Source: a virus
Lineage: Duplodnaviria > Heunggongvirae > Uroviricota > Caudoviricetes
Virus record (IMG/VR): IMGVR_UViG_3300028920_001945
Coordinates: 1-64,000 of that record
DNA: 64,000 nt
Reading direction: 5' to 3' (one strand)
Shown here piece after piece: positions 36,832 through 64,000 of this stretch (the stretch's first letter is position 1; each line of letters opens with the position of its first letter). The notes beneath the pieces were generated by a model, which worked only from the letters and a program-made list of their open reading frames with translations, was not told where the DNA came from and did no database searches. Position numbers and translations under genes: made by a program.

Positions 36832-36851
36832 TATAAGAAAAGAGAAATAAT

Positions 36852-46186: not shown

Positions 46187-46376
46187 ATTTGAGGAAGTTT
46201 GCAAAATCCTTAAAGATAGAGGTTATAGAGCAGTTAGTATGGAAGGTCCAACAAAAAGAATATTTATAGATGATGAACATAACATAAATATAACTATAGA
46301 AATAGATAATGACACTCTAACTGCTGAAGATGAGAAAATTATAGAAGAACGTTTAATAGAATTAGGTTATCTATAA
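46170..46376 (+). CDS. hypothetical protein
   Basis: 68 aa. Confidence 0.4.
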   Translation: MMTMSEFEEVCKILKDRGYRAVSMEGPTKRIFIDDEHNINITIEIDNDTLTAEDEKIIEERLIELGYL

Positions 46377-47299
46377 TGAAAAAGAAAAAAGTGGTAATTA
46401 CCGGAATAAGTGGCTTCATTGGAAGTAACTTAGCAGAATATCTTGATACAGATTATGATATAGTTGGTTTTGATAGAGAACCATGGAAGGATCAGAATAA
46501 TAGACCGTTTTTTAAACAGGATATAAATGATCCCCTAACAGATTTGCATGATGTATATGCAGTCATTCATCTGGCAGCCAAAGCTGGAGTTAGAGAATCT
46601 CAAGATAATTTTGAACAATATGTTCATGATAATATTCTTGGAACAAAATCTATTCTAGATAAATGTATAGACTGGAAACCTTCCATTATATTAATTGCAT
46701 CTTCTTCCAGTATATCAGGGGATAAGGAGAGAGGACACTTTCCAAAATCATTATATGCAGTCAGTAAAGTTACAACAGAAGAGATTTTAAATTCCTATAT
46801 AAGAAATGGGTTATTGGATAGTGATACAACTACTTCAATATTAATACCCTATACTGTATATGGACCCAATCAGAGAAAAGGTCTAGCTATAAGAAATTTT
46901 ATAGATGCAATTATTAGAGAGCAACCCATAACTATATATGGAGATGGAACTCAATCTAGAGATTTCACATACATAGAAGATCTTTGTATAAAGATAAAAC
47001 AAATGCTAGATGAACCTCATAGTATAGGACAAATAACTCATTTAGGTTCAAGAAAACAATACACCATAAATCAGATTATATCTATGATAGCGAGAATTAC
47101 GGAAAAACCCATAACGGTTAATTACGTACCAAGAAATAGATTTGATGTTGATTCTACTCTAGCTCCATATCCATGCTTAGATAAAATAACACCCATAGAG
47201 AGAGGATTAGAAAAACAAATTAAGTGGGCAAAGAATATCTATAATATAGAAAGATTAAGAAAGAATGCCCAAAATTTAAATAAGGAAAAGAAAAAATGA
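46376..47299 (+). CDS. NAD-dependent sugar epimerase/dehydratase (extended SDR)
   Basis: VVITGISGFIGSNL Rossmann motif and YAVSK catalytic YxxxK. Confidence 0.85.
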   Translation: MKKKKVVITGISGFIGSNLAEYLDTDYDIVGFDREPWKDQNNRPFFKQDINDPLTDLHDVYAVIHLAAKAGVRESQDNFEQYVHDNILGTKSILDKCIDWKPSIILIASSSSISGDKERGHFPKSLYAVSKVTTEEILNSYIRNGLLDSDTTTSILIPYTVYGPNQRKGLAIRNFIDAIIREQPITIYGDGTQSRDFTYIEDLCIKIKQMLDEPHSIGQITHLGSRKQYTINQIISMIARITEKPITVNYVPRNRFDVDSTLAPYPCLDKITPIERGLEKQIKWAKNIYNIERLRKNAQNLNKEKKK

Positions 47300-48189
47300 G
47301 CTTTGATTTAGCTATGGCCTTTGATAAGGCAGAATATCTAAATCCTCAAATATATATGCTCATAGATACCTTAAAGGATAATATTCCTAAGGATACAATA
47401 CTTCATATTAATACAAATCGTTCCGATGACAATGAACTACTACAATATATCCATAAGTGTTTAGGGACGATAGTATATAAAAAACCTCCATTTGAGGATT
47501 TAAAGTCAAGGTGTCAATATATGTTTCATGCATTTGAAATTGAAACAGATAAAGAATGGATAATGAAAATAGAAGGGGATCTGCTGGTACTTAAGAATCT
47601 TAACGAATTTGATAAGTTATTGAAGCCAGAGTATGATCTGGTTATAGAACCTGAGAATAGAAAAATACATTCAGATATTATCGCCACAAAACTTTGGAGA
47701 TTAATATATAATCGTCTTGATATAAAACAACCTAAGGATAAAATTGTTTTTAGGGAGAACAATGAAGAAGGTTTACCATTGTATGGAACTGGATTAGTTT
47801 GTGTAAAGAACAAGCATCTAGAAACTATTAATAATAGATGGATTCCATTAACTAAAATTTGTGAGGACTGGATTCAATTTAATATTCATCCAAATGAATT
47901 TGCCTTTACTGCTATGACATATGATGAAGGATGGAACACTTACTTATATCCTCCAAAATATAAATTCAATCCAATAGGACATTTCAGAAAGGGGGATTAT
48001 CCTTCAACTGAATTGATAGAGAACTGTAAATTACCAGAAGATACAATTATCTTTGATTATCATAGACCTGAATGGTTGATGCATGTTGCTAAATATAATG
48101 AGAATATTCGTAATATTATAAAACGAAATAAGAAATATATACCAGAAGACTGGTGGAATCTAACTACAGGAGATTTTCAGGAAGGATGA
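47296..48189 (+). CDS. hypothetical protein in glycan cluster
   Basis: 297 aa with no clear motif. Possibly a glycosyltransferase-like fold. Confidence 0.45.
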   Translation: MSFDLAMAFDKAEYLNPQIYMLIDTLKDNIPKDTILHINTNRSDDNELLQYIHKCLGTIVYKKPPFEDLKSRCQYMFHAFEIETDKEWIMKIEGDLLVLKNLNEFDKLLKPEYDLVIEPENRKIHSDIIATKLWRLIYNRLDIKQPKDKIVFRENNEEGLPLYGTGLVCVKNKHLETINNRWIPLTKICEDWIQFNIHPNEFAFTAMTYDEGWNTYLYPPKYKFNPIGHFRKGDYPSTELIENCKLPEDTIIFDYHRPEWLMHVAKYNENIRNIIKRNKKYIPEDWWNLTTGDFQEG

Positions 48190-48731
48190 AAAATCATAAG
48201 CCTACAACACAATTCATAAAACGTATTTATAAAAAACAGAACTTAATTGGAGTAGAAGTAGGTGTATGGAAAGGTAGTAATGCTAAAGATATGTTAGAGT
48301 TTCTACCCATAAAGAAATTATATTTAGTAGATCCATATCTACATTATAATAATTATAATGATTATAAAGAAGACGATATGGATGAGATGTATCTGAAAGT
48401 TAAAAAGAAATTTGAACCATTTGGAGATAAGGTTGAATTAATTAGAAAAATGTCCTTTGATGCATTAGATAATATTCCAGATGAATGTGATTTTATTTAT
48501 ATAGATGCAAACCATGCATATGAATTTGTTAAGAAGGATTTAGAATTATTTTATCCAAAAGTAAAAAAAGGTGGAATATTGGGAGGTCATGATTATCATT
48601 ATCTAAGACATCCAGGAGTAACCAAAGCAGTAGATGAATTTTGTAATAATATTAATAGTAAGATTTATAGTATGATTGAAAGTATAGATAGTAGAGGATT
48701 AGAAGTATCAGATTGGTGGATGATTAAATAA
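48153..48731 (+). CDS. class I SAM-dependent O-methyltransferase (TylF/MycF-like)
   Basis: LIGVEVGVWKGSNA SAM motif I and DANHAYEFV motif. Confidence 0.7.
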   Translation: MESNYRRFSGRMKNHKPTTQFIKRIYKKQNLIGVEVGVWKGSNAKDMLEFLPIKKLYLVDPYLHYNNYNDYKEDDMDEMYLKVKKKFEPFGDKVELIRKMSFDALDNIPDECDFIYIDANHAYEFVKKDLELFYPKVKKGGILGGHDYHYLRHPGVTKAVDEFCNNINSKIYSMIESIDSRGLEVSDWWMIK

Positions 48732-49924
48732 TGAGAGTATTCAAGAAAATATCAACTCCTTTTGTAGATTCAAGACCTGATAAAGCTATTATAGTAGTGA
48801 ATGGAATAGACCCACAAGTAAATACTATAAAGGCTTTTATACAGGCGTGTGACGATTATAAGATCAGTTATACAGTTTTTGTTAATAAGACAGATTGTTT
48901 AGAGGATGAAAAGTATACAGTTGGTTATATTAAGCAATCTCTAAATTTAAAAGATATTCAGTTTGGCTCTGCTAAAACTGGAAAGGGATTCAAAAAATTA
49001 GCAACATATCTAGACCTGTGGTTTGGTAAGAGAATTATAGTTTTGGGTGTATTTAATTCTGGAAAGACATCTTTAATAAATAGATTAACAGGAGAAAACC
49101 TTAAGGTAGGAACAATACCTGGAACTACTCTAGAATTTACAGAAATACCTGTTAATGGAACAGTTAAGAATATAGGAAAAGAAAATGAGGAAAAGATAGA
49201 AACAGTCTTAATAGATTCTGTAGGTCAATTAATAGATATACATAAACCCATGATGGTATCTATAGATTTTAGTGGTTGTATAACCGGATATGAAAAAATA
49301 AATAAAGTATTTGAAGAAGAAATATTGGGATTAGTTGAAACTCAAGAAAGAGTTAAGAATGATATATTTACAGTAGTTAAGGTTATTAAGCAAGCTTTAT
49401 CAGAAGGTAATAAAATTATAATTACAGGAGCTGGAGCATCAGCTTTAGTAGCTAAAGAGATGGCTGGGCAAGGAACAGAATGTGGTTTACCAATTTTGGT
49501 ATTTACTAATGATGGAGCTGAATTACAACCTGTAACATTCTCAAAGGGTCTAGGAGAACAAGAAGGTGGTTTATCTAAATATATAGCTAATGCAATTAAT
49601 CCAGGAGATATAGTTATAGGAATTAGTGCATCAGGTGGTACTGGATTTGTATTTGATACCTTAAGAAGAGGTAGAGAAAAGAAAGCAATTCCCATAGCTA
49701 TAACAGAGAATTCTGATACACCTTTAGGACATGCAGCTCTATATATAATAAAAAGTGAAGCTAAACCAGAAGGACCCAGTAGTTCCAAAATACAAACAGC
49801 CCATTTGGTTATAGGCCATGCCTTAATATTAACACTAGCAGATGAACTAGGAGTATCAGCTGATGAATCAGTTGGATATATGTTACCAGAAATATTAGAA
49901 AATAAAAAAATGGGAATTAAATAA
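48731..49924 (+). CDS. circularly permuted GTPase fused to SIS (sugar isomerase) domain
   Basis: The order G4 VNKTD, then G5 SAKTG, then G1 GVFNSGKTSLINRL, then G2 GTT, then G3 DSVG is the cpGTPase topology (YlqF/YqeH-like). The C-terminal half has SIS motifs IIITGAGAS...VIGISASGGTG. Confidence 0.6.
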   Translation: MRVFKKISTPFVDSRPDKAIIVVNGIDPQVNTIKAFIQACDDYKISYTVFVNKTDCLEDEKYTVGYIKQSLNLKDIQFGSAKTGKGFKKLATYLDLWFGKRIIVLGVFNSGKTSLINRLTGENLKVGTIPGTTLEFTEIPVNGTVKNIGKENEEKIETVLIDSVGQLIDIHKPMMVSIDFSGCITGYEKINKVFEEEILGLVETQERVKNDIFTVVKVIKQALSEGNKIIITGAGASALVAKEMAGQGTECGLPILVFTNDGAELQPVTFSKGLGEQEGGLSKYIANAINPGDIVIGISASGGTGFVFDTLRRGREKKAIPIAITENSDTPLGHAALYIIKSEAKPEGPSSSKIQTAHLVIGHALILTLADELGVSADESVGYMLPEILENKKMGIK

Positions 49925-50283
49925 TGACAGAATATTCTATAGAAGAACATAAATGGGAAATAAAGGGAATACCAGATGAAGATGGTATATTATTTAAGAT
50001 GTACCTTTCAGATATAGGAGAAATTGGAAGAGCACGAGTAGTTAAAATATTTAATGATACTCGACAACAATATTATGCTCTCTTAGAGGATTTAATATTA
50101 GAAGAAGAATATAGAGGTATAGGATTTGGATATATGTTTGTAAAACAGATTATTCAAGAAGTGGAAAAAGAAGGATGCTATAAGTTTATAGCTACATCCA
50201 GATTCGGTAGAGATATGATACATAAATTTTATATGGATTTAGGTTTTAAAGAGTGGGGCTACGAATTTAGAATTGATTTATGA
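49924..50283 (+). CDS. GNAT-family N-acetyltransferase
   Basis: EEYRGIGFGYMFVKQ acetyl-CoA motif A. 119 aa. Confidence 0.55.
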   Translation: MTEYSIEEHKWEIKGIPDEDGILFKMYLSDIGEIGRARVVKIFNDTRQQYYALLEDLILEEEYRGIGFGYMFVKQIIQEVEKEGCYKFIATSRFGRDMIHKFYMDLGFKEWGYEFRIDL

Positions 50284-51179
50284 ATATAGGATATTTTAAT
50301 GCTAGAGGCATAAATGATGTTGAACATTGGTTTGCTTTAGAAATAGAAGAATTACTTAGAAGAAAACATAATGTTGTAAATTTTTCATTTAGAGGACAAC
50401 AACCAAATAGAGAGCATATCCAGTGGATGGATTTTGCTCATTTTCATTTTGCTCAAGTAGCAGACCACTATAAGAGAATTGGAGTTCCATTTGCTATAAG
50501 TCCTCACGCTAATGATATATTTGTGGATAATGGAGCTACTCTTATAAAGGCTAGCAAACATCCCAAATGTAAATTTGTAACATACCAATCATTTTATCAT
50601 AAGAGAAAATTTGAGGAATGGGGAATAACTAAACCTCTAGTATATTTACCAATGTGTTGTAGAGTAAATTTATTCAAGAGAGAACATCCCACATTACATT
50701 TAACAGGAGATAAAATAATAGCGGGTGGAAGATTAATACCTAAAAAGGGATTAGATAGATTATCTTCAGTAGATAATTTAGTTATATTTGGTACTGGTCC
50801 ATTAGAGGATGAATTAAAGGAGAAATTACCTAAGGCTGAATTTGTTGGATGGCAGAGTGGTGATGTATTAAAATATACATATTCAAGAGGATGGATATTT
50901 TTAAATCCTAGTATAGTTACTGGAGATGGAGATTCAGATGGTATTCCTAACACCATTAAAGAAGCTATGCTTATGGAGATGCAAGTAATATCAAGTCCAG
51001 TAGCTGGTATACCTGAATTAGAACAGGTAACATTATTTGATGATTGGGATAATATAAATGAATGTATAGAGACTATACCTAGAATTCCTAACAAGAAGGG
51101 AAGGAAGGAGATATTAAATACCTATAGTCCTAGATCATGTGTAGATAGATTATTAAAGGCAATAGAGGAATATAATTGA
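50280..51179 (+). CDS. glycosyltransferase (GT-B, group 1-like)
   Basis: GGRLIPKKGLDRL and an EAMLMEMQVISSPVAGIPE region. Confidence 0.6.
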   Translation: MNIGYFNARGINDVEHWFALEIEELLRRKHNVVNFSFRGQQPNREHIQWMDFAHFHFAQVADHYKRIGVPFAISPHANDIFVDNGATLIKASKHPKCKFVTYQSFYHKRKFEEWGITKPLVYLPMCCRVNLFKREHPTLHLTGDKIIAGGRLIPKKGLDRLSSVDNLVIFGTGPLEDELKEKLPKAEFVGWQSGDVLKYTYSRGWIFLNPSIVTGDGDSDGIPNTIKEAMLMEMQVISSPVAGIPELEQVTLFDDWDNINECIETIPRIPNKKGRKEILNTYSPRSCVDRLLKAIEEYN

Positions 51180-51883
51180 TAGATGCTATAATTTTAGCTG
51201 CAGGAAAAGGCACAAGATTAATGCCCATAACTCAAGATAAACCAAAAGCTATGGTGGAAGTTAAAGGTAAACCTATAATAAGTTGGATCCTAGATGTATT
51301 AAAACAAATACAAATAAAGAAAGTATTTATAATAACAGGATATAGAGAAGGAACTCTAAAATCGTATATAAAATATAATTATAAGGATATGGATATAAAT
51401 TTCCTTCATCAAAAAGAATTAACTGGTACTGCAGATGCAATAGCATTAGCAGAAGGTTATATTGGAAATAACTTTTTAGTATTATCCGGAGATACTATAT
51501 ATAAACCAGAAGAACTCATGAAATTAATGGAATGGGAAAATTCTCTTTTATATACAGAACAAAATACTAGATTATATGAATATGGGACCATAGATCTAAA
51601 TACCAATAAATTACCAGAAGAAGGATTTTATTTGAAATTCATAAATGAAAAAACAACTAGACCAACAACTAATAATATTAATTGTGGAGTATATCACTTT
51701 AATAGAGAAGTTTTTAGATATATAAGAGATACAGAATATGATGGGAGATTCAGTGAAAAGATTATAACTAATACAATAAATATGATGATAGATGATGGTA
51801 TTGACTTTAGAGGTTTTTATGTTAAGGAATTAAATGAAATATCCAGACCAGAGGATATAGAGAATATAGAGAATAGATTATGA
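51176..51883 (+). CDS. sugar-phosphate nucleotidyltransferase (HddC/GlmU-like)
   Basis: AIILAAGKGTRLMPIT signature. Confidence 0.8.
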   Translation: MIDAIILAAGKGTRLMPITQDKPKAMVEVKGKPIISWILDVLKQIQIKKVFIITGYREGTLKSYIKYNYKDMDINFLHQKELTGTADAIALAEGYIGNNFLVLSGDTIYKPEELMKLMEWENSLLYTEQNTRLYEYGTIDLNTNKLPEEGFYLKFINEKTTRPTTNNINCGVYHFNREVFRYIRDTEYDGRFSEKIITNTINMMIDDGIDFRGFYVKELNEISRPEDIENIENRL

Positions 51884-53124
51884 AAATACTATTGTCTACC
51901 TTACCAAATGAAGGACAATATATAAGTTGGTTAACTAACCCAACATTTAGAGTGGAAGTTAATAAATATATGCCTCTAGGTATATTATCATTAGCAACAA
52001 ACCTCCCACAAGAACACGATATTAAAGTTATAGATCCAGCTAGTGAGGATTGGTCTATAGATAAAACAATTTCGATTATAGAAAATGAAGAGCCTGATAT
52101 ATTAGGAATATCTGCAGTAACAAGACGTGTATATGCATTAAAGGAGATTCTTTCTAGGATAAATGTTCCATATATTACAGTAGGAGGACCACATGCAACT
52201 CATTATTCAGAGCAAATATTAGAATATGGTGCTGATGCAGTATTTGTTGGACCATTAGCTGATAATGAATTTAGATACAATTTGAATAAAAAAGCTAGAG
52301 GTATAATATATTGTAAGACTGGTATAAATGAAATTAAATTCCCAAATAGAGAATTTTTAGAAGTAAATAAATATTTTCCAAAGGCACATAAACTATTTGT
52401 AGCTGATAATCGTCTTCCTATGTTTTCTAGTATAGGATGTCCAAATAAATGTCTTTTTTGTAATGTACAAACTAAGAAAATACAGTTAAAAAATTCAAAT
52501 ATAATACTAGATGAAATGGAATATTTAAAATCATTAAATTGTAATAGTGTTCATATGTTGGATGATAATTTCAATGTAAGTAAAAAACATTTAAATAGCA
52601 TCATTAAGGAATTTAAAGAAAGAGACTTTAATATAGAATGGAGTGGTAGAGGTCAAGTTAAAATGGATCTATCTATGTTATCTAAATTAAAGGAAGTTGG
52701 TTTTAAAAGAATGCATGTTGGTATAGAAGCCCTAGATGATAATATATTAAAATACTTTAATAAAAATCAAACAGTTAATGATATAGAAAATTTTTGTAGA
52801 GAGATGACAAATTTAGATTTGGATATTATAGGATACTTTATATTTGGAAGTCCAGTAGAAACAAAAGAATATAGAAAGAATGTTATCAAGAAAATAAGAG
52901 ATTTAAATATAAATAAAGTTCTTTGTCATGTATTATTTCCTCAACCAAATACTGGATATTATTTTGAATTATTAAATAAGGGTACATTCAAGGAAGATTA
53001 TTGGAAAAAATATATGGAAGGTCCCACTCCAAATTATGAGTTGCCATACCCGTTTGGGGAAGAATATAAAAATGAGATATGGAATTTTATGGAAGATTTG
53101 AAAAAGGAATTTAAATATATATAA
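51880..53124 (+). CDS. B12-binding radical SAM enzyme (class B, methyltransferase-like)
   Basis: N-terminal cobalamin-binding-like domain, then CPNKCLFC (Cx3Cx2C). 414 aa. Confidence 0.75.
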   Translation: MKILLSTLPNEGQYISWLTNPTFRVEVNKYMPLGILSLATNLPQEHDIKVIDPASEDWSIDKTISIIENEEPDILGISAVTRRVYALKEILSRINVPYITVGGPHATHYSEQILEYGADAVFVGPLADNEFRYNLNKKARGIIYCKTGINEIKFPNREFLEVNKYFPKAHKLFVADNRLPMFSSIGCPNKCLFCNVQTKKIQLKNSNIILDEMEYLKSLNCNSVHMLDDNFNVSKKHLNSIIKEFKERDFNIEWSGRGQVKMDLSMLSKLKEVGFKRMHVGIEALDDNILKYFNKNQTVNDIENFCREMTNLDLDIIGYFIFGSPVETKEYRKNVIKKIRDLNINKVLCHVLFPQPNTGYYFELLNKGTFKEDYWKKYMEGPTPNYELPYPFGEEYKNEIWNFMEDLKKEFKYI

Positions 53125-53136
53125 GAGGTAATTAAT

Positions 53137-58159: not shown

Positions 58160-59177
58160 TCATAAGTTAATGTATCATCCAGAACGAGTACATAAATGGA
58201 TGAATGGAGACACAATCTATCCCATATTTGCAGAGATCTCTCTTACAAGTAGATGTAATAATAGATGTCTTTTCTGTGCATATAACTTTTTCTTAAAATA
58301 CAAATCCATAGATATAAATACGGAAACAGTAAAGAAGACCCTAGATAGTATGGCAAATTGTGGAGTTAAATCAGTTATGTTTGGTGGAGAAGGAGAACCT
58401 CTCTTACATAAAGATGTAGCTGATTTAATTATATATGCAAAAAATCTAGGATTAGATGTAAGTTTAACTACAAATGGAGTATTATTAGATAGTATAACGG
58501 CTAAGAGGATATTACCTTACTTATCTTGGGTTAAGTTTAGTATAGATGCAGGAAGATCAGATGAATATGCTTATCTACATGGAACCATTAAAGAGAACTA
58601 TAAGAAAGTTTTAGATAATGTATCCAGGTCAAGCTTCTTAAATAGATTAAAGGAATATGATTGTACTATAGGAACTCAAGCTCTGTTATTTAAGGAGAAT
58701 ATAGATAATCTAGAAGAGCTTATTAAGTTTTTGGTATATGCTAAGCCAAATTATTTAGTAATAAAACCTTATTCAGAAAATGAGAATCAAAGTATAAAGA
58801 CTTTACATCAACCCACTAAAAGACAACTAAAGGACTTTAAGAAGATGTTAAAAAAATATGAAGATAAATTAAATATTATATTCAGAGAAAAAGCCTTTGG
58901 GAATATAGTAGATGACAAACCATATAATATCTGTTATGCCAATGAATTTATGGCATATATAAATACCCTGGGAGATGTTTATAGTTGTACTAACTTTCTA
59001 GGATTTGAAGAATATAGCTATGGAAATATATATAAAGATAGCTTTGAAAATATATGGAAGAACAAAAAGGAAATTAATATTGATATAAGTAAATGTAGAA
59101 AAGCATGTAGATTAGATCCAATAAATAGATATTTATGGCGACTAAAAAACCCACAAAACCACGACAATTTTATTTAA
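58134..59177 (+). CDS. radical SAM enzyme with SPASM/twitch C-terminal domain
   Basis: CNNRCLFC Cx3Cx2C motif, GGEGEPLL, and C-terminal Cys cluster. Confidence 0.8.
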   Translation: MIDSYSLDNHKLMYHPERVHKWMNGDTIYPIFAEISLTSRCNNRCLFCAYNFFLKYKSIDINTETVKKTLDSMANCGVKSVMFGGEGEPLLHKDVADLIIYAKNLGLDVSLTTNGVLLDSITAKRILPYLSWVKFSIDAGRSDEYAYLHGTIKENYKKVLDNVSRSSFLNRLKEYDCTIGTQALLFKENIDNLEELIKFLVYAKPNYLVIKPYSENENQSIKTLHQPTKRQLKDFKKMLKKYEDKLNIIFREKAFGNIVDDKPYNICYANEFMAYINTLGDVYSCTNFLGFEEYSYGNIYKDSFENIWKNKKEINIDISKCRKACRLDPINRYLWRLKNPQNHDNFI

Positions 59178-59890
59178 GAAAAAAAATATTAGAATTGGCT
59201 ATGGAGACTAAGAATGGTCACATAGGAGGATCTCTATCCTGTATAGATGCAATAGATACAATATACAGCATAAAGAAGGATGAAGATAAATTTCTTTTAA
59301 GTAAGGGACATGCAACGTTAGCATTCTATACTATATTAAGAGAGCAAGGATTTAAACCCGATATTACAAAATTACATCCCGATATAGATATTAAGAATGG
59401 AATAGAAATAAGTTCAGGCTCATTAGGTCATGGACTTCCAATAGCAGTAGGTATGGCTCTATCAAAAAAGATTAAGAATGAGAATGGAATAATTTATGTA
59501 TTATTAGGAGATGGAGAATGTCAAGAAGGTACAACTTGGGAATCTCTATTATTTGCTGCTCAGCATAATTTATATAATCTCTGTATAATAATAGACTATA
59601 ATAAGTTACAGGCCATAGATTATGTTGAAGATGTTCTAGATATTGATAGTTTAATTAATAAAATTACTGCATTTAATTGTACTGCAATGCCAGTATTAGA
59701 TGGTCATAATACTGATAGTATAAAGAATGCCCTACAAAATACATCTAACTTCACCGTTAGAGAACCAAAAGTAATTATTCTACATACAATAAAGGGAAGT
59801 GGAGTTAATTATATGGAAAATGGTCTAGAATGGCATAATAAGTTGCCAGATAAAAAACAATTAAAAAAAGCTATGGAGGAGTTATCATGA
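59135..59890 (+). CDS. transketolase N-terminal (ThDP pyrophosphate-binding) subunit
   Basis: GHATLAFY, GSLGHGLPIAVGMAL and LGDGECQEG motifs. Confidence 0.85.
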   Translation: MATKKPTKPRQFYLRKKILELAMETKNGHIGGSLSCIDAIDTIYSIKKDEDKFLLSKGHATLAFYTILREQGFKPDITKLHPDIDIKNGIEISSGSLGHGLPIAVGMALSKKIKNENGIIYVLLGDGECQEGTTWESLLFAAQHNLYNLCIIIDYNKLQAIDYVEDVLDIDSLINKITAFNCTAMPVLDGHNTDSIKNALQNTSNFTVREPKVIILHTIKGSGVNYMENGLEWHNKLPDKKQLKKAMEELS

Positions 59891-60366
59891 GAAGGAGATT
59901 TGGAGAATGGATAGCCAAACAATCTTTAGATGATGATAGTATTTATCTTCTAGTTGGAGATATAGGATATGGAATATTTGATAAATTTAGAGAACAATCA
60001 CCCGATAGATTCATAAATGTTGGTTGTTGTGAACAGACCATGATAGGAATTGCAGCTGGTATGGCTTTAAGTGAATTGAAGCCTTATGTCTATACAATAA
60101 CTCCATTCTTAATAGAAAGAACCTTTGAGCAGATTAAAATAGATATAGACCTTAATAATGTAGATGTTAAACTTATAGGTTATGATGATTATGCCTCTCA
60201 AGGTCCTACCCATGAATTAGTTAAGAATGGAAACTATATGAAGATGTTTGAGAATATAGAAAGCTTTTGGCCAGTAGACTCTGATGAAGTTGAAGATTTT
60301 TTAAGATATTCTTATAAAAATAAAAAACCCACTTTTATGAGATTAAGAAAGGATAGGGGATGTTAA
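59887..60366 (+). CDS. transketolase pyrimidine-binding domain subunit (truncated, 159 aa)
   Basis: FINVGCCEQTMIGIAAGMAL...PFLIERTFEQIKIDI. The usual C-terminal domain is absent. Confidence 0.7.
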   Translation: MRRRFGEWIAKQSLDDDSIYLLVGDIGYGIFDKFREQSPDRFINVGCCEQTMIGIAAGMALSELKPYVYTITPFLIERTFEQIKIDIDLNNVDVKLIGYDDYASQGPTHELVKNGNYMKMFENIESFWPVDSDEVEDFLRYSYKNKKPTFMRLRKDRGC

Positions 60367-60486
60367 ACAATTATTCATAAATATAAAAATCGTAATTTAA
60401 TAGTTCCTGATTTTATTATAGCAGGAAACGAAAGATCTGGTACTAGTTATTTAAATATATGGTTAAATACACATGAGAATATATAT

Positions 60487-61137
60487 TTGCCAAAAAGACA
60501 TATATATTTTTATACAAAATATTGGAACAACGGAATAGATTGGTATGCAAATCAATTTAAAAATAAAAAAGTAAATATGAGAGCAAAATCAATTATAGGA
60601 GATCATACTCCAAATGAACTCTCATTTTATAAAAAACACGATACTCTCAAAAGAATGAAGGATACATTTCCAGATCTAAAAATTATAGTTTCCCTTAGAA
60701 ATCCAGTTGATAGAGCAGTATCGGCAGCAGTTCATCATAAGTTAGTAGATGGGACTGGTGGAAATAAACCTAATATTAATGAATACTTTGTTAAGGATGG
60801 AAAATATCTAGAACCTTCAGATGGCATATCCATTATTACAGAACGATGTATATACTGGAAATCAATTAAGGAACTGTATAATACATTTGATGAAGAACAA
60901 TTTAAGATAGTTATATTAGAAGACATTGCCAAAGATCCAAAAAAGGTATTGGATGATATATGTGAATTTCTTGGTGCAAGTAAAACAATTAAACCTGACA
61001 AAAGAAAATTCAATCAAAGAAAAAAGAATATTGATATTAAACCAGAAACTAGAAAAATTATGCTAGAATACTTTAAACCTCATAATGATAAATTGTTTAA
61101 GATAATAAATAGAAATATAGAGGAATGGGATTATTAG
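60487..61137 (+). CDS. sulfotransferase-family protein (annotated start doubtful)
   Basis: The track uses TTG at 60487. The in-frame upstream codons 60367-60486 encode the PAPS-binding loop IIAGNERSGTSYL but contain no ATG, GTG or TTG. The 3'-phosphate-binding region lies downstream. Confidence 0.6.
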   Translation: MPKRHIYFYTKYWNNGIDWYANQFKNKKVNMRAKSIIGDHTPNELSFYKKHDTLKRMKDTFPDLKIIVSLRNPVDRAVSAAVHHKLVDGTGGNKPNINEYFVKDGKYLEPSDGISIITERCIYWKSIKELYNTFDEEQFKIVILEDIAKDPKKVLDDICEFLGASKTIKPDKRKFNQRKKNIDIKPETRKIMLEYFKPHNDKLFKIINRNIEEWDY

Positions 61138-61140
61138 ATA

Positions 61141-61677
61141 ATGAAACAGATAAAGTTACATTTGGGATGCGGTAAGAAATACATACCAGGATTTATACAT
61201 ATAGATATAGAAAAATATGATCACATAGACTATAATACAGATGCATCAGATCTACACATGTTTAAAGACAATTCAGTTGATTTAATATATTCAGCACACC
61301 TTCTTGAACATTATAAGAGAAGAGATATAGATACTGTATTAAAGGAATGGTATAGAGTCCTAAAACCAGACGGTACCCTTAGATTAGCAGTACCTGATTT
61401 TGAAGCATTAATAAAGATATATAATAAATATAAAGATTTAGAGATGATAATGGGACCTCTTTATGGTAATAATGGAAAGTTAGATTCTCACTATATAACA
61501 TTTGACTTTAGATATTTATGTAAGAGATTAAGATTAATAGGCTTTAAGAATATACAAAGATATAACTGGAGAGAAACAATACATAAAAATTATGACGATT
61601 ATTCTCAGAGTTATATACCCCACTTAGATAAAGAGAATGGAATACTAATAAGTTTAAATGTTGAGGCAACTAAATGA
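61141..61677 (+). CDS. class I SAM-dependent methyltransferase
   Basis: LHLGCGKKYIPGFIHIDI motif I. Confidence 0.65.
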   Translation: MKQIKLHLGCGKKYIPGFIHIDIEKYDHIDYNTDASDLHMFKDNSVDLIYSAHLLEHYKRRDIDTVLKEWYRVLKPDGTLRLAVPDFEALIKIYNKYKDLEMIMGPLYGNNGKLDSHYITFDFRYLCKRLRLIGFKNIQRYNWRETIHKNYDDYSQSYIPHLDKENGILISLNVEATK

Positions 61678-62810
61678 GATCCGAATGGTCACCTGGAAAG
61701 AAGTGGAATCCATTCAATAGCTATAAATTATTAGCACAAGTATATAAATGGAGAGATATAGAAAGAGGAAAGAGAATACCATCTCCAACATTAGTTACAA
61801 TTGATCCAACTAATAACTGTAACTTTAATTGCATATGGTGTAATAGTGACTATATATTAAAGAGAAGAGATCAATATATATCTAAGAAATCTCTATTGAA
61901 TATTGCAGACTTCTTACCAAAATGGAGAAACGGTGTAGAGGCCGTTTGTATAGCAGGAGGAGGGGAATCCCTATTAAATCCAGCAACTTCAGATCTTATA
62001 GATAGATTAGTTGATAATGGAATAGAGGTAGGTGTAGTTACAAATGGAACTAATCTTAATAAGTATAAAGAATCATTATCAAAATGTACTTGGGTTGGAG
62101 TATCAGTAGATGCAGGAACACCAGAAACATTTCAGAAAATAAAGAAAGTAGATTACTTTGATAAAGTGATATCAAATATAAAAGAACTTATAGATTATTC
62201 TAATAAAAAAGATACAAGATTAGGAACGGACAGATCTGGATATGGAGTTAGTTATAAATATCTTTTACATCCATATAATTGTCAAGAAATATTAAAATCA
62301 GTTAAAATTGCTAGAGATATAGGATGTAAGAATTTTCACTTAAGACCTATGGGTATACCATGGGATAAATTAAATGAAGGTTCAGAAGTATTCGATTTAC
62401 CTTCTATAAGTACATTTCAAGATCAATTGGAGCAATCAAGAAAATATGAAACTGAAAAATTTGGGGTATATGGAGTTACTCATAAATTTGATTCTAAATT
62501 AAATATAGCTAATAAATTCAAAGAATGTTATGCAATCTTCATGACATGTGCCTTTATGCCAGGAACAGATGGCAACAAGAATAACTTTACTGTTGGTTTA
62601 TGTTGTGATAGAAGAGGAGACGAAAGATTAGAATTAGCTAGGAATATTTCCTCTATGAGCCAATTAGATGACCTCTGGGGCTCAGAAAAACATTGGGACA
62701 TATTTGATAACATTAACATGAAAGATTGTCCTAGATGTACGTATCAGCCTCATAATCAAATATATGAACATGTTATAAAGAATGATAGTATGACTTACAG
62801 ATTTATATGA
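61674..62810 (+). CDS. radical SAM enzyme
   Basis: CNFNCIWC Cx3Cx2C and AGGGESLLNP SAM-binding motif. Confidence 0.8.
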   Translation: MRSEWSPGKKWNPFNSYKLLAQVYKWRDIERGKRIPSPTLVTIDPTNNCNFNCIWCNSDYILKRRDQYISKKSLLNIADFLPKWRNGVEAVCIAGGGESLLNPATSDLIDRLVDNGIEVGVVTNGTNLNKYKESLSKCTWVGVSVDAGTPETFQKIKKVDYFDKVISNIKELIDYSNKKDTRLGTDRSGYGVSYKYLLHPYNCQEILKSVKIARDIGCKNFHLRPMGIPWDKLNEGSEVFDLPSISTFQDQLEQSRKYETEKFGVYGVTHKFDSKLNIANKFKECYAIFMTCAFMPGTDGNKNNFTVGLCCDRRGDERLELARNISSMSQLDDLWGSEKHWDIFDNINMKDCPRCTYQPHNQIYEHVIKNDSMTYRFI

Positions 62811-63382
62811 TTAAATTACACTTAGGTTGTGGACCAGTATATCTAGATGGATATATTAATATAGATATTAAGATAGATGATTACACGTGGTTAAAGGAAG
62901 AGAGACCAGATATACTAGATTATAATAGAACTACTCTAGATAAATATTATAAGTATGATTATTATAAGAGAAAACACAATCTAGCAGTTGTAGATGAATT
63001 TATGGATATTACTGAGATACCTTATAATTATAATAATGTAGATGAGATATTAATAATAAATACCTTTGAACATTTCAATAGATACGAATCAGTAAAACTT
63101 TTAGAAGAGTGGTATAGATTACTAAAGAAAGGTGGAAAGTTAATCATAGGAGGTATTCCAGATTTAGAGGGGACTATAGATCTTTTAAAAAGAGAAGAAA
63201 ATGAAGAATGGGTTATTAGTCTTATATATGGTAGTCAAAAGAATAACTTTGCATATCATAAGTGGGGGTATACATTTGAGTATTTAAAGGATATATGTTT
63301 AGAAATAGGGTTTAGGAATATAAAACAAATATCCATTATAGAACACGCTTATCCAACATTTAACATAGAGATGACCAAATGA
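62807..63382 (+). CDS. class I SAM-dependent methyltransferase (paralog of 61141-61677)
   Basis: MIKLHLGCGPVYLDGYINIDI motif I. Confidence 0.65.
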   Translation: MIKLHLGCGPVYLDGYINIDIKIDDYTWLKEERPDILDYNRTTLDKYYKYDYYKRKHNLAVVDEFMDITEIPYNYNNVDEILIINTFEHFNRYESVKLLEEWYRLLKKGGKLIIGGIPDLEGTIDLLKREENEEWVISLIYGSQKNNFAYHKWGYTFEYLKDICLEIGFRNIKQISIIEHAYPTFNIEMTK

Positions 63383-64000
63383 AGGGAATAATATTAAAAC
63401 AAAAATATAATGCATATACAGCAGGTAAGATATTTATAGATAATCTAATAAAGCACACTGATTCCAATGTGGTTGAATTTGATAATAAAAACTACTGTAG
63501 TAACAACTGGAAAGATATATATAATCAAATATCTAAATATAAGGATGCAAAATATATATTCTCAGGTATAGACTATTTTCTATATGAGAATGTAGAACCC
63601 CTACATAAATTTAATATTCCTCTTATAATGTCAGCTGGTAATTCATGGGAGAGATTAAAGGATAATAGATGGAGAAAATACGTTAAAAAACATCGGCCTT
63701 CTATAATAAGCTTAGATGATTGGTGCTCTAAGTGTGTTTATGAGGATATTCTAGATGTAGATGATTTACAATATATATGGAAACCATTTGATACCGATAT
63801 ATCTACAATAAAAGATTATCAGGAAAAAAAGATTTGGGATGTTTCATTATCAGGAAAACCATCTTATAAAGATAGACGATACTACGAAACTTTTATACCC
63901 ACTTTATCAGAAAAATTAAAATTTAAATTTAAAAGATTAGGAAGAAATTTTTCATTTGAAGATTATGCTAGGAACCTAAATAAAAGTTGGATGTCAATGA
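63379..64000 (+). CDS. hypothetical protein, N-terminal fragment (continues beyond window)
   Basis: ATG at 63379 overlaps the upstream stop. Open to the window end. Confidence 0.4.
   Translation, partial: MKGIILKQKYNAYTAGKIFIDNLIKHTDSNVVEFDNKNYCSNNWKDIYNQISKYKDAKYIFSGIDYFLYENVEPLHKFNIPLIMSAGNSWERLKDNRWRKYVKKHRPSIISLDDWCSKCVYEDILDVDDLQYIWKPFDTDISTIKDYQEKKIWDVSLSGKPSYKDRRYYETFIPTLSEKLKFKFKRLGRNFSFEDYARNLNKSWMSM

What the first reader, a model, noticed from the sequence alone, without database searches (positions are those of the whole stretch)
46376..64000. Self-sufficient heptose glycan factory, from pentose-phosphate intermediates to decorated sugar, in a viral genome
Nineteen consecutive co-directional genes encode a complete route to an NDP-heptose and extensive tailoring. 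A TalC/FSA-type transaldolase plus a split minimal transketolase (ThDP subunit plus a pyrimidine-domain-only 159-aa subunit) can make sedoheptulose-7-P. GmhA isomerises it. Two alternative kinases follow (GHMP HddA-like and PfkB RfaE-like), then a HAD GmhB-like phosphatase and an HddC-like nucleotidyltransferase. Tailoring comprises two SDR epimerases or dehydratases, three radical SAM enzymes (one B12-binding, one SPASM), four SAM methyltransferases, a GNAT, a HIT protein, a sulfotransferase and glycosyltransferases. Viruses usually borrow the host sugar-nucleotide pool, so encoding both the supply from central metabolism and the tailoring is unusual. It suggests a heavily modified (C-methylated, acetylated, sulfated?) heptose used for virion or DNA glycosylation, or for surface conversion of the host.
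Basis: partly seen in the sequence, partly recalled or inferred. Interest (0 to 1): 0.7.

Follow-up and report, generated by a model that had tools for sequence, protein, structure and literature searches.

The report
Viral heptose-type sugar-nucleotide gene island
A large uncultured virus, probably of archaea, carries an island of at least 29 genes that most likely makes a nucleotide-activated seven-carbon (or larger) sugar, decorates it heavily and attaches it to an unknown target; the theme is known from phages, but this gene combination is not.

Summary
The island runs at least 6 kb past the window end.

The core is a conserved operon: NT, SDR, HddA-like kinase, GmhA-like isomerase, transaldolase, HIT-like protein, small HAD phosphatase, HldA-like kinase. 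The nearest characterised relatives of both kinases and the isomerase are heptose-pathway enzymes. None reaches NCBIfam's curated cutoff.

The "minimal split transketolase" is real, but it was not borrowed from the pentose-phosphate pathway. It belongs to a widespread mobile cassette found in glycan islands of SAR11, Chlorobiaceae, DPANN archaea and Patescibacteria. There it sits with HldA-like kinases, GmhA-like isomerases, SDRs and radical SAM/SPASM enzymes, and almost never with a transaldolase. It may make the ketose phosphate, or it may add a C2 branch to a keto-sugar. This is unresolved.

A viral origin is well supported (strong PHROG hits, dense ORFans, a clade of 50-155 kb contigs), but no capsid or terminase gene was seen. 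Heptose genes and talC are already known in phages. I rate this a new variant of a known kind, of moderate interest.

The parts
46376..47299 (+). SDR family epimerase/oxidoreductase (SDR1); has SSS...YAVSK, not the TDE motif of 4,6-dehydratases
   Evidence: Pfam Epimerase 5e-36; NCBIfam hits all far below cutoffs; sequence read
47296..48189 (+). Unknown 297-aa protein, conserved in related viral islands
   Evidence: No Pfam/NCBIfam/PDB hit; 56% identical in L009 and 45% in L098; AF2 model unusable
48153..48731 (+). Class I SAM methyltransferase (Methyltransf_24/TylF-like O-methyltransferase); likely start is the ATG at 48186
   Evidence: Pfam 2.3e-15, TylF 1.4e-5
48731..49924 (+). Fusion of an RsgA/YqeH-like GTPase with a SIS sugar-phosphate isomerase/etherase-like domain
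   Evidence: Pfam SIS, MMR_HSR1, RsgA_GTPase; NCBIfam MurQ-like 7e-13, GmhA 1e-7
49924..50283 (+). GNAT acetyltransferase
   Evidence: Pfam Acetyltransf_1 1.7e-6
50280..51179 (+). GT4-type glycosyltransferase, soluble
   Evidence: Pfam Glyco_trans_1_4 1.9e-11; 90% identical in L100, 58% in L009; no TM segment
51176..51883 (+). Sugar-1-phosphate nucleotidyltransferase
   Evidence: Pfam NTP_transferase 2.6e-31; NCBIfam Arch_glmU N-domain 2.9e-49, HddC 1.5e-27, both below cutoff
51880..53124 (+). B12-binding radical SAM enzyme (methyltransferase or rearrangement type)
   Evidence: Pfam B12-binding + Radical_SAM; best NCBIfam hit HpnJ 2.3e-28; absent at this position in relative L100
53137..54126 (+). 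SDR family epimerase/oxidoreductase (SDR2); STSS...YASGK, not a 4,6-dehydratase
   Evidence: Pfam Epimerase 9.6e-41; 80% identical in L100 next to NT and GHMP
54222..55235 (+). HddA-like GHMP kinase (heptose-7-phosphate 1-kinase, alpha route)
   Evidence: NCBIfam HddA 1.9e-42, 146 bits against a cutoff of 600; top 4 PDB hits are all heptose-7-P kinases at about 1e-33; 35% identical to the Cr30 'D,D-heptose 7-phosphate kinase'
55225..55791 (+). GmhA-like SIS isomerase
   Evidence: NCBIfam gmhA 3.1e-24, 86 bits against 209; PDB top hits are phosphoheptose isomerases; GNGGSA and catalytic His kept, catalytic Glu replaced by Asp
55788..56456 (+). Short (TalC/MipB-type) transaldolase
   Evidence: Pfam TAL_FSA 7e-27; Asp, Schiff-base Lys (IKVP), Glu (PVSLE) and Phe (SLF) present, which is the transaldolase pattern and not the FSA pattern; about 50% identical to many cellular short transaldolases
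56443..56817 (+). Divergent HIT-like protein (CxxC, KGH, K-E-H, EHWHR motifs); always follows the transaldolase in relatives
   Evidence: No Pfam hit; family profile against PDB gives HIT proteins as top 3, E 0.002-0.008; invariant H46/H89/H91; TAL-HIT adjacency in L100 and L101
56805..57134 (+). Minimal 109-aa HAD phosphatase (DIDGT motif), functional analogue of GmhB
   Evidence: NCBIfam EcbF-BcbF capsule phosphatase 9e-7; 40% identical to a cyanophage ORF directly after the phosphoheptose isomerase
57131..58159 (+). HldA/RfaE-domain-I-like PfkB kinase
   Evidence: NCBIfam rfaE_dom_I 8.5e-29, 101 bits against 345; the only PDB hit is the heptose-7-P kinase HldA, 5.7e-9; PfkB homologues lie next to the transketolase pair in 49 of 80 cellular loci
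58134..59177 (+). Radical SAM/SPASM enzyme, part of the conserved transketolase module
   Evidence: Pfam; 39% identical to the rSAM-SPASM next to the transketolase pair in Nanoarchaeia L012; homologues in 39 of 80 loci
59135..59890 (+). Transketolase ThDP-binding (PP) subunit, 251 aa
   Evidence: Pfam Transketolase_N 3e-24; PDB 6YAK split transketolase 2e-47; GH, KGH, HPD, GDGE..EG, DYN and WH motifs kept
59887..60366 (+). Transketolase pyrimidine-binding subunit, 159 aa, with no C-terminal domain
   Evidence: Pfam Transket_pyr 2e-19; PDB 6YAJ 1.5e-11 over residues 36-193 of 341; 49-59% identical Pyr-only ORFs in 80 cellular genomes
60400..61137 (+). Sulfotransferase; the canonical-start ORF begins at 60487, but the PAPS-binding loop is encoded in frame upstream
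   Evidence: Pfam Sulfotransfer_1 8.5e-13; in-frame 'IIAGNERSGTS' upstream without ATG/GTG/TTG
61141..61677 (+). Class I SAM methyltransferase
   Evidence: Pfam Methyltransf_11 1.6e-11
61674..62810 (+). Radical SAM enzyme (third in the window)
   Evidence: Pfam Radical_SAM 2.1e-20
62807..63382 (+). Class I SAM methyltransferase
   Evidence: Pfam Methyltransf_11 1.3e-7
63379..64000 (+). Glycosyltransferase, cut by the window end (315 aa on the longer contig)
   Evidence: Glyco_trans_1_2 on L008 gene 8193-9140; no Pfam hit for the truncated part

Best explanation
This is a glycan-biosynthesis island of a large uncultured tailed-virus-like element. The source contig is 115,760 bp and the host is probably archaeal. 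The island has two joined modules plus tailoring and transfer genes.

Module A is the conserved operon NT, SDR, HddA-like kinase, GmhA-like isomerase, transaldolase, HIT-like protein, mini-HAD phosphatase and HldA-like kinase. It most likely works in these steps:
1. The transaldolase makes sedoheptulose-7-P from fructose-6-P and erythrose-4-P.
2. The GmhA-like protein isomerises it to glycero-manno-heptose-7-P.
3. A kinase phosphorylates C1.
4. The HAD removes the 7-phosphate.
5. The nucleotidyltransferase forms an NDP-heptose.

Module B is the radical SAM/SPASM enzyme, TK_N and the Pyr-only transketolase subunit, together with the PfkB kinase and RmlD-like SDRs. It is a widespread mobile cassette. 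Its ThDP enzyme either makes the ketose phosphate that enters the pathway or adds a two-carbon branch to an oxidised NDP-sugar.

The SDRs, three to four radical SAM enzymes, O- and C-methyltransferases, the GNAT and the sulfotransferase then modify the sugar. Soluble glycosyltransferases transfer it to an unknown acceptor.

Shown: domain content, gene order, its conservation and catalytic motifs. Inferred: every substrate, the product and the acceptor.
For: - Domain and family hits.
- Kinases: the top four PDB hits of the GHMP kinase are heptose-7-P kinases, and the only PDB hit of the PfkB protein is HldA.
- Isomerase: GmhA motifs and the catalytic His are kept.
- Transaldolase: the Asp/Lys/Glu/Phe catalytic set is kept.
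- Operon conservation: the order GT4-NT-SDR-GHMP-GmhA-TAL-HIT-HAD-PfkB is kept at 60-90% identity in L100, and the TAL-HIT pair is kept in L101.
- Phosphatase: the mini-HAD is 40% identical to a cyanophage ORF directly downstream of the phosphoheptose isomerase. HAD-GmhA-[NT+PfkB]-TK_N-TK_pyr is contiguous in SAR11 locus L022.
- Transketolase cassette: the pair occurs in 80 of 80 retrieved loci. Within 10 kb there is a PfkB homologue in 49, a rSAM-SPASM in 39 and a GmhA-like protein in 24. Module B is shared at 52-58% identity by three members of the viral PolB clade.
- Viral nature: phrog_1297 1.6e-64, phrog_1314 4.5e-87, phrog_98 2e-33, phrog_1392 3.5e-30, phrog_403 3e-25; dense small ORFans upstream; about 75 related PolB contigs of up to 155 kb.
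- Archaeal hints: S17e, Rad51-like protein, XPF-HhH.
Against: - No protein reaches its NCBIfam equivalog cutoff, so substrates could differ from the heptose paradigm.
- The catalytic Glu of GmhA is Asp here.
- The nucleotidyltransferase resembles the archaeal GlmU N-domain more than HddC.
- There is no HldC-type adenylyltransferase for the beta route.
- Two kinases and two SIS domains are unexplained redundancy.
- The transketolase pair almost never co-occurs with a transaldolase in cells (2 of 80). It also occurs in organisms such as SAR11 that I expect, from general knowledge, to have a normal transketolase, which argues for a specialised reaction.
- No capsid, portal or terminase gene was seen between about -9 kb and +6 kb of the window.
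- No flippase, polymerase, oligosaccharyltransferase or initiating transferase is present, so the acceptor is unknown.
Confidence: 0.65

Rival explanations
1. The minimal transketolase pair is a tailoring enzyme, not a supplier. After an SDR oxidises the NDP-sugar to a keto-sugar, the ThDP enzyme transfers a two-carbon (hydroxyacetyl or glycolaldehyde) unit to the carbonyl. This gives a C-branched sugar that radical SAM enzymes, reductases and methyltransferases process further.
For: - Split-gene transketolases in sugar gene clusters have been proposed to do exactly this in miharamycin and amipurimycin biosynthesis and in 13 further Streptomyces clusters (PMC12247030, section 2.3).
- In Nanoarchaeia L012 and archaeon L014 the pair sits among NTP_transferase, several SDRs, a hexose 2,3-dehydratase, a TylCIII-type C-methyltransferase and a sugar 3,5-epimerase/isomerase, with no SIS domain or transaldolase.
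- SDR homologues flank the pair in 50-56 of 80 loci.
- Two of the four canonical sugar-phosphate-binding residues are replaced, invariantly within the family: the E. coli S385 and H461 equivalents become Gly/Tyr and Tyr99.
Against: - The proposed branching activity has never been shown in vitro.
- The pair is contiguous with HAD-GmhA-[NT+PfkB] in SAR11, which fits an entry-step role equally well.
- The transketolase histidines, and the Arg and Lys/Arg at the two remaining phosphate-binding positions, are kept.
Confidence: 0.35
2. The pathway makes a sugar larger than heptose, following the lincomycin logic. The transaldolase (or the transketolase) builds an octulose phosphate from a pentose or hexose phosphate. 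A GmhA-like isomerase, GHMP kinase, HAD phosphatase and nucleotidyltransferase then convert it to an NDP-octose.
For: - The gene set TAL + GmhA-like + GHMP kinase + phosphatase + NT is the same enzyme set as the transaldolase LmbR, phosphatase LmbK and nucleotidyltransferase LmbO of the lincomycin cluster, which makes GDP-octose (PMC12945683). That LmbN is the isomerase and LmbP the kinase is from my own knowledge.
- The tight TAL-GmhA-GHMP adjacency is conserved in relatives.
- All pathway proteins are far below the heptose equivalog cutoffs, and the catalytic Glu of GmhA is Asp. Both leave room for a different substrate.
Against: - The transaldolase is about 50% identical to a broad plateau of ordinary short transaldolases and keeps all canonical residues.
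- The kinases' nearest characterised relatives are heptose kinases.
- No LmbR sequence was available for direct comparison.
Confidence: 0.15
3. The segment is not viral. It is a cellular chromosome, or a plasmid-like element of a small-genome archaeon or bacterium, that carries an ordinary surface-glycan locus.
For: - No capsid, portal or terminase gene was found in the about 80 kb examined.
- The same cassette genes occur in cellular glycan islands.
- An S17e ribosomal protein gene and amino-acid-type metabolic genes are present.
- Some clade members are binned in MAGs.
Against: - Multiple strong matches to phage protein families.
- Runs of dozens of 40-100-aa ORFans, all on one strand.
- Its own PolB, primase, recombinase, RNR, RNA ligase and two tRNAs, with no other housekeeping genes.
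- PolB relatives form a discrete clade on contigs of 50-155 kb.
- GC is uniform at about 30% with a constant skew.
Confidence: 0.1

Closest known systems
[quoted passage not shown]
   Same: The same four enzyme types are present and clustered. The GHMP kinase's best family and structure hits are HddA/WcbL-type heptose kinases. SDR enzymes and methyltransferases follow, as in C. jejuni.
   Different: - All scores are far below equivalog cutoffs.
- The phosphatase is a 109-aa capless HAD, not GmhB.
- The NT is closer to archaeal GlmU.
- The SDRs lack the 4,6-dehydratase TDE motif.
- The island adds a transaldolase, a transketolase pair, a HIT-like protein, a second (PfkB) kinase, three to four radical SAM enzymes and a sulfotransferase.
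- It has no export or polymerisation genes.
Heptose gene sets of cultured phages: Caulobacter phage Cr30 and Synechococcus phage SynMITS9220M01 (Kyanoviridae); gmhA as a marine phage AMG (PMC9238414)
   Same: These are virus-encoded kinase + phosphoheptose isomerase clusters with epimerases, NTs and glycosyltransferases. The mini-HAD has a 40% identical homologue directly after the cyanophage isomerase.
   Different: The phage clusters lack an adjacent transaldolase, the transketolase pair and the radical SAM enzymes. Identities are only 26-35%. The replication genes here (PolB clade, S17e, XPF) point to a different, probably archaeal, virus lineage.
Cyanophage talC (transaldolase auxiliary metabolic gene)
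   Same: A short TalC-type transaldolase in a viral genome. 455 phage records match, 422 of them from cyanophages.
   Different: In cyanophages, talC is thought to redirect the pentose-phosphate pathway (general knowledge). Here it is embedded between the GmhA-like gene and a HIT-like gene inside a sugar-nucleotide operon.
Split-gene transketolases: the Carboxydothermus hydrogenoformans enzyme (PDB 6YAK/6YAJ) and the split transketolases proposed for C2 branching in miharamycin/amipurimycin
   Same: Two-subunit ThDP enzyme. The N subunit matches 6YAK at 2e-47 with the transketolase histidines kept. It lies in a sugar-modification cluster, like the Streptomyces examples.
   Different: - The second subunit is only the Pyr domain (159 aa against 341 aa). 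The C-terminal domain is missing.
- Two substrate-phosphate ligands are replaced.
- The family is spread across SAR11, Chlorobiaceae, DPANN and Patescibacteria, not Streptomyces.
Lincomycin GDP-octose pathway (LmbR transaldolase, LmbN, LmbP, LmbK, LmbO)
   Same: The same five-enzyme logic: a C-C bond-forming transaldolase, then isomerase, anomeric kinase, phosphatase and nucleotidyltransferase (plus my own knowledge).
   Different: No sequence comparison with Lmb proteins was possible. The product here is unknown. The context is viral rather than an actinomycete antibiotic cluster.
Virus-encoded glycosylation machineries of giant viruses (chloroviruses, mimivirus) and glycosylated mycobacteriophage virions (general knowledge, not checked here)
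   Same: The viral genome encodes both sugar-nucleotide synthesis and soluble glycosyltransferases, with no host-type lipid-carrier machinery.
   Different: Different sugars (rhamnose, viosamine, bacillosamine and others) and different hosts. No evidence here that virion proteins are the acceptors.

Membership tests
Phosphoheptose isomerase GmhA (TIGR00441) | Score at or above NCBIfam's curated cutoff (209.45 bits) | tested here: not met
   85.8 bits, E 3.1e-24; it is the best-scoring family
Phosphoheptose isomerase GmhA (TIGR00441) | Catalytic Glu and His, and the GNGGSA phosphate-binding loop | tested here: inconclusive
   GNGGSA and the C-terminal His are kept. The Glu of 'AAEL' is Asp ('ACDL') in the alignment to 1TK9
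D-glycero-D-manno-heptose 7-phosphate kinase HddA (NF049969) | Equivalog cutoff of 600 bits | tested here: not met
   145.9 bits, E 1.9e-42, full length 2-329
D-glycero-D-manno-heptose 7-phosphate kinase HddA (NF049969) | Nearest characterised relatives are heptose kinases rather than other GHMP kinases | tested here: met
   The top four PDB hits (4N3O, 3K85, 4USM, 4USK/WcbL) score 1.9e-33 to 3.9e-32. The next hit, fucokinase, scores 3.7e-9
GmhB heptose bisphosphate phosphatase | Membership of the GmhB/HisB-type HAD subfamily (about 180-190 aa) | tested here: not met
   109 aa. The only hits are TIGR01689 capsule phosphatase (9e-7) and HAD_PNKP. The HAD DxDGT motif is present. It works like GmhB by context only
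HddC heptose-1-P guanylyltransferase (NF049965) | Equivalog cutoff of 300 bits and best match among NT families | tested here: not met
   96.7 bits. Arch_glmU (168 bits) and AglF (129 bits) score higher
ADP-L-glycero-beta-D-manno-heptose pathway (HldA/HldE, GmhB, HldC, HldD) | HldA-type PfkB kinase | tested here: inconclusive
   rfaE_dom_I 100.7 bits against a cutoff of 345. The only PDB hit is HldA 4E84, 5.7e-9
ADP-L-glycero-beta-D-manno-heptose pathway (HldA/HldE, GmhB, HldC, HldD) | HldC cytidylyltransferase-like adenylyltransferase | tested here: not met
   No CTP_transf_like domain in any island ORF. It is fused to PfkB in SAR11 loci
Transketolase (EC 2.2.1.1) | ThDP/metal motif GDG...N, active-site histidines, cofactor-activating Glu in the Pyr domain | tested here: met
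   GH, KGH, HPD, GDGECQEG, DYN and WH in the N subunit. CEQ Glu and GPTH in the Pyr subunit, invariant in the family
Transketolase (EC 2.2.1.1) | Three-domain architecture (PP, Pyr, C-terminal) and the four sugar-phosphate ligands (E. coli R358, S385, H461, R520) | tested here: not met
   No C-terminal domain: 159 aa, aligned to residues 36-193 of the 341-aa 6YAJ chain. The S385 and H461 equivalents are replaced; the R358 and R520 (Arg/Lys) equivalents are kept
Transketolase (EC 2.2.1.1) | Catalyses ketol transfer between sugar phosphates | not testable with these tools
   Needs an enzyme assay
Short transaldolase (TalC/MipB subfamily, TIGR00875) | Schiff-base Lys, Asp, and the Glu/Phe pair that separates transaldolases from fructose-6-P aldolases (Gln/Tyr) | tested here: met
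   IDSAN Asp, IKVP Lys, PVSLE Glu, SLF Phe and SIRHP, aligned to 1VPX, 3R8R and 6YS0. The NCBIfam score of 122 bits is below the cutoff of 245.95
HIT superfamily | Histidine triad motif HxHxHxx on the HIT fold | tested here: inconclusive
   Only HxH (EHWHR) is invariant. The profile against PDB gives HIT proteins as top 3 at E 0.002-0.008. hhalign against HINT1 gives E 0.057. No Pfam hit; the AF2 model has pLDDT 37.7
Tailed virus (Caudoviricetes-like) genome | Major capsid protein, portal, large terminase | not tested
   None found in the window or in the about 15 kb of flanks that could be fetched. The rest of the 115,760-bp contig was not retrievable
Tailed virus (Caudoviricetes-like) genome | Gene content dominated by phage protein families and ORFans, with its own replication module | tested here: met
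   PHROG hits from 3e-25 to 4.5e-87; PolB, primase, recombinase and exonuclease; ORFan runs

The most novel reading that the evidence does not exclude
The Pyr-only minimal transketolase, with its partner radical SAM/SPASM enzyme, HldA-like kinase and SDR, may define an undescribed route to a higher-carbon (C8-C9) or C2-branched nucleotide sugar. This route would be common in the glycan islands of abundant uncultured microbes (SAR11, Chlorobiaceae, DPANN archaea, Patescibacteria). A clade of 50-155 kb probable archaeal viruses would have captured it and fused it to a transaldolase-fed heptose operon. The product would be a methylated, sulfated, branched sugar not yet seen in any glycan.
Probability: 0.3. 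Interest if true: 0.8.

Novelty: new variant of a known kind. Interest (0 to 1): 0.5.

Why it matters
Viral sugar-nucleotide and glycosyltransferase genes are increasingly seen as determinants of host-surface remodelling and virion glycosylation. For viruses of small-genome archaea and bacteria they have so far been reported only as generic 'glycosyltransferase and nucleotide-sugar AMGs' (PMC11310336, PMC12647753).

This island is an unusually complete and elaborate example: two carbon-carbon bond-forming enzymes, a full activation pathway and more than fifteen tailoring enzymes.

The more general pay-off is the minimal transketolase cassette. The same highly conserved pair sits in the surface-glycan islands of some of the most abundant microbes on Earth, and it has no assigned reaction. 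Working out its chemistry would assign a function to a widespread gene pair. It could also reveal a new class of branched or extended sugars.

Tried and rejected
- Borg-like element: rejected. There are no long perfect tandem repeats.
- Close DNA or protein relatives in IMG/VR and in the INPHARED phage set: none by megablast, by exact pattern, or by PolB/HddA peptide patterns.
- Retrieving the rest of the 115,760-bp contig: failed. An exact 40-mer gave no match in metagenome contigs, one look-up found no record and another returned only a 2.2-kb contig.
- AlphaFold2 single-sequence models of the HIT-like protein and the 297-aa unknown: pLDDT 37.7 and 36.9, unusable, so no fold search was run.
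- PDB search of the 297-aa unknown: only chance-level hits.
- Transketolase hits in the 'phages' collection are 26-40% identical. They lie in unannotated faecal contigs, Listeria 'phage' fragments, Acinetobacter 'phage' assembly contigs annotated tktA/tktB, or a Salmonella genome record. I do not count them as evidence that known phages carry this pair.
- ComDE-type sulfopyruvate decarboxylase as the identity of the split ThDP enzyme, considered because of the sulfur-related genes nearby: rejected. Both subunits match transketolase strongly.
- 4,6-dehydratase role for the two SDRs: rejected from the sequence. They have SSS/STSS instead of the TDE motif.
- Literature search for transketolase in O-antigen or branched-sugar loci: the first query returned nothing relevant.

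Full report
**What is in the sequence.**
The whole 64-kb window has about 30% GC, a constant positive GC skew and essentially all real ORFs on the + strand. From 46376 to the window end there are 22 complete ORFs and one truncated ORF, often overlapping by a few bases.
- In gene order: SDR, unknown, TylF-like methyltransferase, GTPase+SIS fusion, GNAT, GT4, sugar-1-P nucleotidyltransferase, B12-radical SAM, SDR, GHMP kinase, SIS_2 (GmhA-like), TAL_FSA, a small protein without Pfam hit, a 109-aa HAD, PfkB kinase, radical SAM/SPASM, Transketolase_N, a 159-aa Transket_pyr-only protein, sulfotransferase, methyltransferase, radical SAM, methyltransferase, and a truncated glycosyltransferase.
- I find three class-I methyltransferases, not four, and 22+1 genes, not 19.
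- A longer contig carrying identical genes (L008) shows that the island continues past the window. The extra genes are the rest of the GT, an unknown, a fourth radical SAM/SPASM, an RmlD-like SDR, an unknown and a TylCIII-type C-methyltransferase (Methyltransf_13). The island therefore has at least 29 genes.

**The activation core.**
For every core protein the best curated family is the heptose-pathway one, but none reaches the curated cutoff:
- HddA: 146 bits against a cutoff of 600
- gmhA: 86 against 209
- rfaE domain I: 101 against 345
- fsa/talC: 122 against 246
- HddC: 97 against 300, and the NT is closer to the archaeal GlmU N-domain at 168 bits

Searches of solved structures sharpen this.
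- The GHMP kinase's top four hits are all heptose-7-phosphate kinases at about 1e-33, and the next family is 24 orders of magnitude weaker.
- The PfkB protein's only hit is the beta-heptose-7-P kinase HldA.
- The SIS protein's top eleven hits are phosphoheptose isomerases. It keeps the GNGGSA loop and the catalytic His, with Asp in place of the catalytic Glu.
- The transaldolase keeps the Asp, the Schiff-base Lys, and the Glu/Phe pair that marks transaldolases as opposed to fructose-6-P aldolases.
- The small HAD has the DxDGT motif. It is 40% identical to an ORF that directly follows the phosphoheptose isomerase in cyanophage SynMITS9220M01.
- The protein without a Pfam hit (56443-56817) belongs to a family of about 100 representatives with invariant H46, H89 and H91 and a near-invariant CxxC. 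A profile of that family hits only HIT proteins at the top of the PDB list, with E 0.002-0.008. 'HIT-like' is therefore plausible but weakly supported.

**Conservation of the operon.**
- A diverged relative (L100) carries GT4-NT-SDR-GHMP-GmhA-TAL-HIT-HAD-PfkB in the same order at 60-90% identity. It lacks the B12-radical SAM that is inserted between NT and SDR in the window.
- A second relative (L101) keeps TAL-HIT and NT-SDR.
- The core is therefore a selected unit, and the transaldolase is an integral part of it.
- Beyond three close relatives at 64-75%, the transaldolase is about 50% identical to a broad plateau of ordinary short transaldolases from archaea and bacteria. That is what one expects for a captured housekeeping enzyme, as with cyanophage talC (455 phage records).

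**The transketolase pair.**
- The N subunit is a good transketolase: 2e-47 to the split transketolase of Carboxydothermus, with all active-site histidines and the ThDP motif.
- The second subunit really is only the Pyr domain. It aligns to residues 36-193 of the 341-aa partner chain. It keeps the cofactor-activating Glu and the GPTH histidine.
- Within the family, two of the four canonical sugar-phosphate ligands are invariantly replaced.
- The pair is not a one-off reduction of a host pentose-phosphate enzyme. Homologues at about 50-58% identity sit in a related viral contig, in a Nanoarchaeia genome and in another archaeal MAG, always inside nucleotide-sugar tailoring clusters.
- A scan of one genome per species found 151 confirmed loci. 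The best 80 all have a TK_N gene followed by a 156-159-aa Pyr-only gene. They come from Pelagibacteraceae, Chlorobiaceae, Nano-/Pace-/Woesearchaeota, Patescibacteria, Anaerolineales, Planctomycetes and Methanosarcinales.
- Within 10 kb of the pair, tblastn finds an HldA-like PfkB in 49 of 80 loci, SDRs in 50-56, the radical SAM/SPASM in 39, a GmhA-like SIS protein in 24 and a TylCIII-like methyltransferase in 22. It finds a transaldolase in only 2, a GHMP kinase in 3 and the mini-HAD in 4.
- In SAR11 locus L022 the order is initiating transferases, a Polysacc_synt_2 dehydratase, HAD, GmhA, a cytidylyltransferase+PfkB fusion, TK_N, TK_pyr.
- The pair is therefore a component of a horizontally mobile glycan-island cassette that is linked to a beta-heptose-type activation set.

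**Two readings of the transketolase remain.**
- It makes the ketose phosphate that enters the cassette. This could be sedoheptulose-7-P. Alternatively, since organisms like SAR11 should already have a normal transketolase (my general knowledge), it could be a different C(n+2) ketose.
- It acts late, transferring a C2 unit to an oxidised NDP-sugar. This has been proposed but never demonstrated for split-gene transketolases of miharamycin, amipurimycin and other Streptomyces clusters (PMC12247030).
- Genomic context cannot separate the two. I give supply about 0.4, branching about 0.35 and something else the remainder.

**A third reading.**
The set transaldolase + GmhA-like isomerase + GHMP kinase + phosphatase + nucleotidyltransferase is also exactly the logic of the lincomycin GDP-octose pathway (and my own knowledge). 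Because every protein is well below the heptose equivalog cutoffs, an octose or other higher sugar cannot be excluded. I rate it at about 0.15.

**Tailoring and transfer.**
- Both window SDRs have Ser-rich motifs and YxxxK, not the TDE of 4,6-dehydratases. They are therefore oxidoreductases or epimerases.
- The B12-radical SAM is nearest to HpnJ-type and methyltransferase-type enzymes.
- Together with two or three further radical SAM enzymes, O- and C-methyltransferases, a GNAT and a sulfotransferase, this predicts a heavily modified sugar.
- None of the island proteins has transmembrane segments. There is no flippase, polymerase, oligosaccharyltransferase or initiating phosphoglycosyltransferase. 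In SAR11 such genes sit right next to the cassette.
- The virus therefore either feeds host machinery or uses its soluble glycosyltransferases on cytoplasmic acceptors such as virion proteins. This is inference.
- Nothing supports DNA glycosylation. The QueC-like genes upstream hint at a separate 7-deazaguanine-type modification (QueF in relative L098).

**Virus or host.**
Evidence for a virus:
- The window and its flanks carry PolB, a separate exonuclease, a primase, a Rad51/UvsX-like recombinase, an XPF-HhH nuclease, class II RNR, a T4-type RNA ligase and two tRNAs.
- They also carry long runs of 40-100-aa ORFans.
- Several proteins match phage families strongly: phrog_1297 1.6e-64, phrog_1314 4.5e-87, phrog_98 2e-33, phrog_1392 3.5e-30, phrog_403 3e-25.
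- The PolB defines a discrete clade of about 75 uncultured sequences on contigs of up to 155 kb. The source contig is 115,760 bp.
- Three clade members share module B at 52-58% identity.

Reservations:
- No capsid, portal or terminase gene was seen in the about 80 kb I could inspect, and the rest of the contig could not be fetched.
- I therefore put viral origin at about 0.85-0.9.
- An S17e ribosomal protein above Pfam's cutoff, the XPF-HhH and Rad51-like proteins and the archaeal-GlmU-like NT suggest an archaeal host. The host is not established.

**Comparison with what is known.**
- gmhA is treated as a well-characterised phage AMG (PMC9238414).
- Caulobacter phage Cr30 and cyanophage SynMITS9220M01 carry annotated kinase/isomerase/epimerase/NT/GT clusters.
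- talC is a classic cyanophage gene.
- CPR/DPANN viruses are reported to carry glycosyltransferase and nucleotide-sugar genes.
- What I did not find elsewhere is the combination of a transaldolase embedded in the heptose operon, the minimal transketolase cassette, four radical SAM enzymes and sulfation in one viral island.
- In the curated phage collection the transketolase subunit has only 26-40% matches, in dubious or unannotated records.

**Verdict.**
I classify the finding as a new variant of a known kind, with interest of about 0.5. The most valuable lead is the unassigned, widely distributed minimal transketolase cassette.

Noticed in passing
window 60367-60487: The sulfotransferase's PAPS-binding loop ('VPDFIIAGNERSGTSYL') is encoded in frame upstream of the first canonical start (TTG 60487). 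There is no stop back to 60367 and no ATG/GTG/TTG. Only ATT (60370, 60373) or ATA (60400) could initiate, so the gene either uses a non-canonical start or would be mis-called as truncated.
   Followed up: partly
window 15747-16076: An ORF matches ribosomal protein S17e (Pfam 40.9 bits against a cutoff of 22.8). This is an archaeal/eukaryotic-type ribosomal protein in a virus-like genome.
   Followed up: partly
window 36073-39487: A TauE/SafE-family membrane protein is followed by an isocitrate/isopropylmalate dehydrogenase, a homocitrate-synthase-like HMGL protein and an aconitase small-subunit-like protein. This is a 2-oxoacid chain-elongation-type trio that is unexpected in a virus.
   Followed up: no
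window 39423-40700: Two tandem QueC-like PP-loop proteins. A clade relative carries QueF (L098 657-1007). Together they suggest a 7-deazaguanine-type nucleic-acid modification module.
   Followed up: no
window 48731-49924: An RsgA/YqeH-like GTPase is fused to a SIS (MurQ/GmhA-like) domain inside the glycan island. No homologue exists in the related islands L009, L098 or L100, and the function is unexplained.
   Followed up: partly
window 25712-27966 and 29766-30401: A second, separate set of glycan genes lies upstream: a GT4-type glycosyltransferase (26674-27966, Pfam-confirmed), an adjacent 321-aa ORF (25712-26677) with no Pfam hit, and a second sulfotransferase that has an intact PAPS loop.
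   Followed up: partly
window 51880-53124 versus L100 774-2467: The B12-binding radical SAM gene sits between NT and SDR2 in the window but is absent at that junction in the close relative L100. This indicates a recent insertion or deletion within the operon.
   Followed up: partly
L022 7714-9234 and L049 5898-7418 (SAR11 genomes): Next to the minimal transketolase pair, SAR11 encodes a 506-aa fusion with the cytidylyltransferase domain N-terminal and the PfkB kinase C-terminal. This is the reverse of the domain order I recall for E. coli HldE.
   Followed up: partly
L096 2919-6170 (about 3.8-7.1 kb upstream of the window start): An ATPase (phrog_1297) and a DUF2201/VWA protein (phrog_1314) form a pair, as seen in large phages. 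A Dam methylase (window 6132-6569) and a GP88-family protein (window 7017-7616), with many tiny ORFans, follow inside the window.
   Followed up: partly
window 18347-19015: A membrane-anchored collagen-like (Gly-X-Y repeat) protein lies in the replication region.
   Followed up: no
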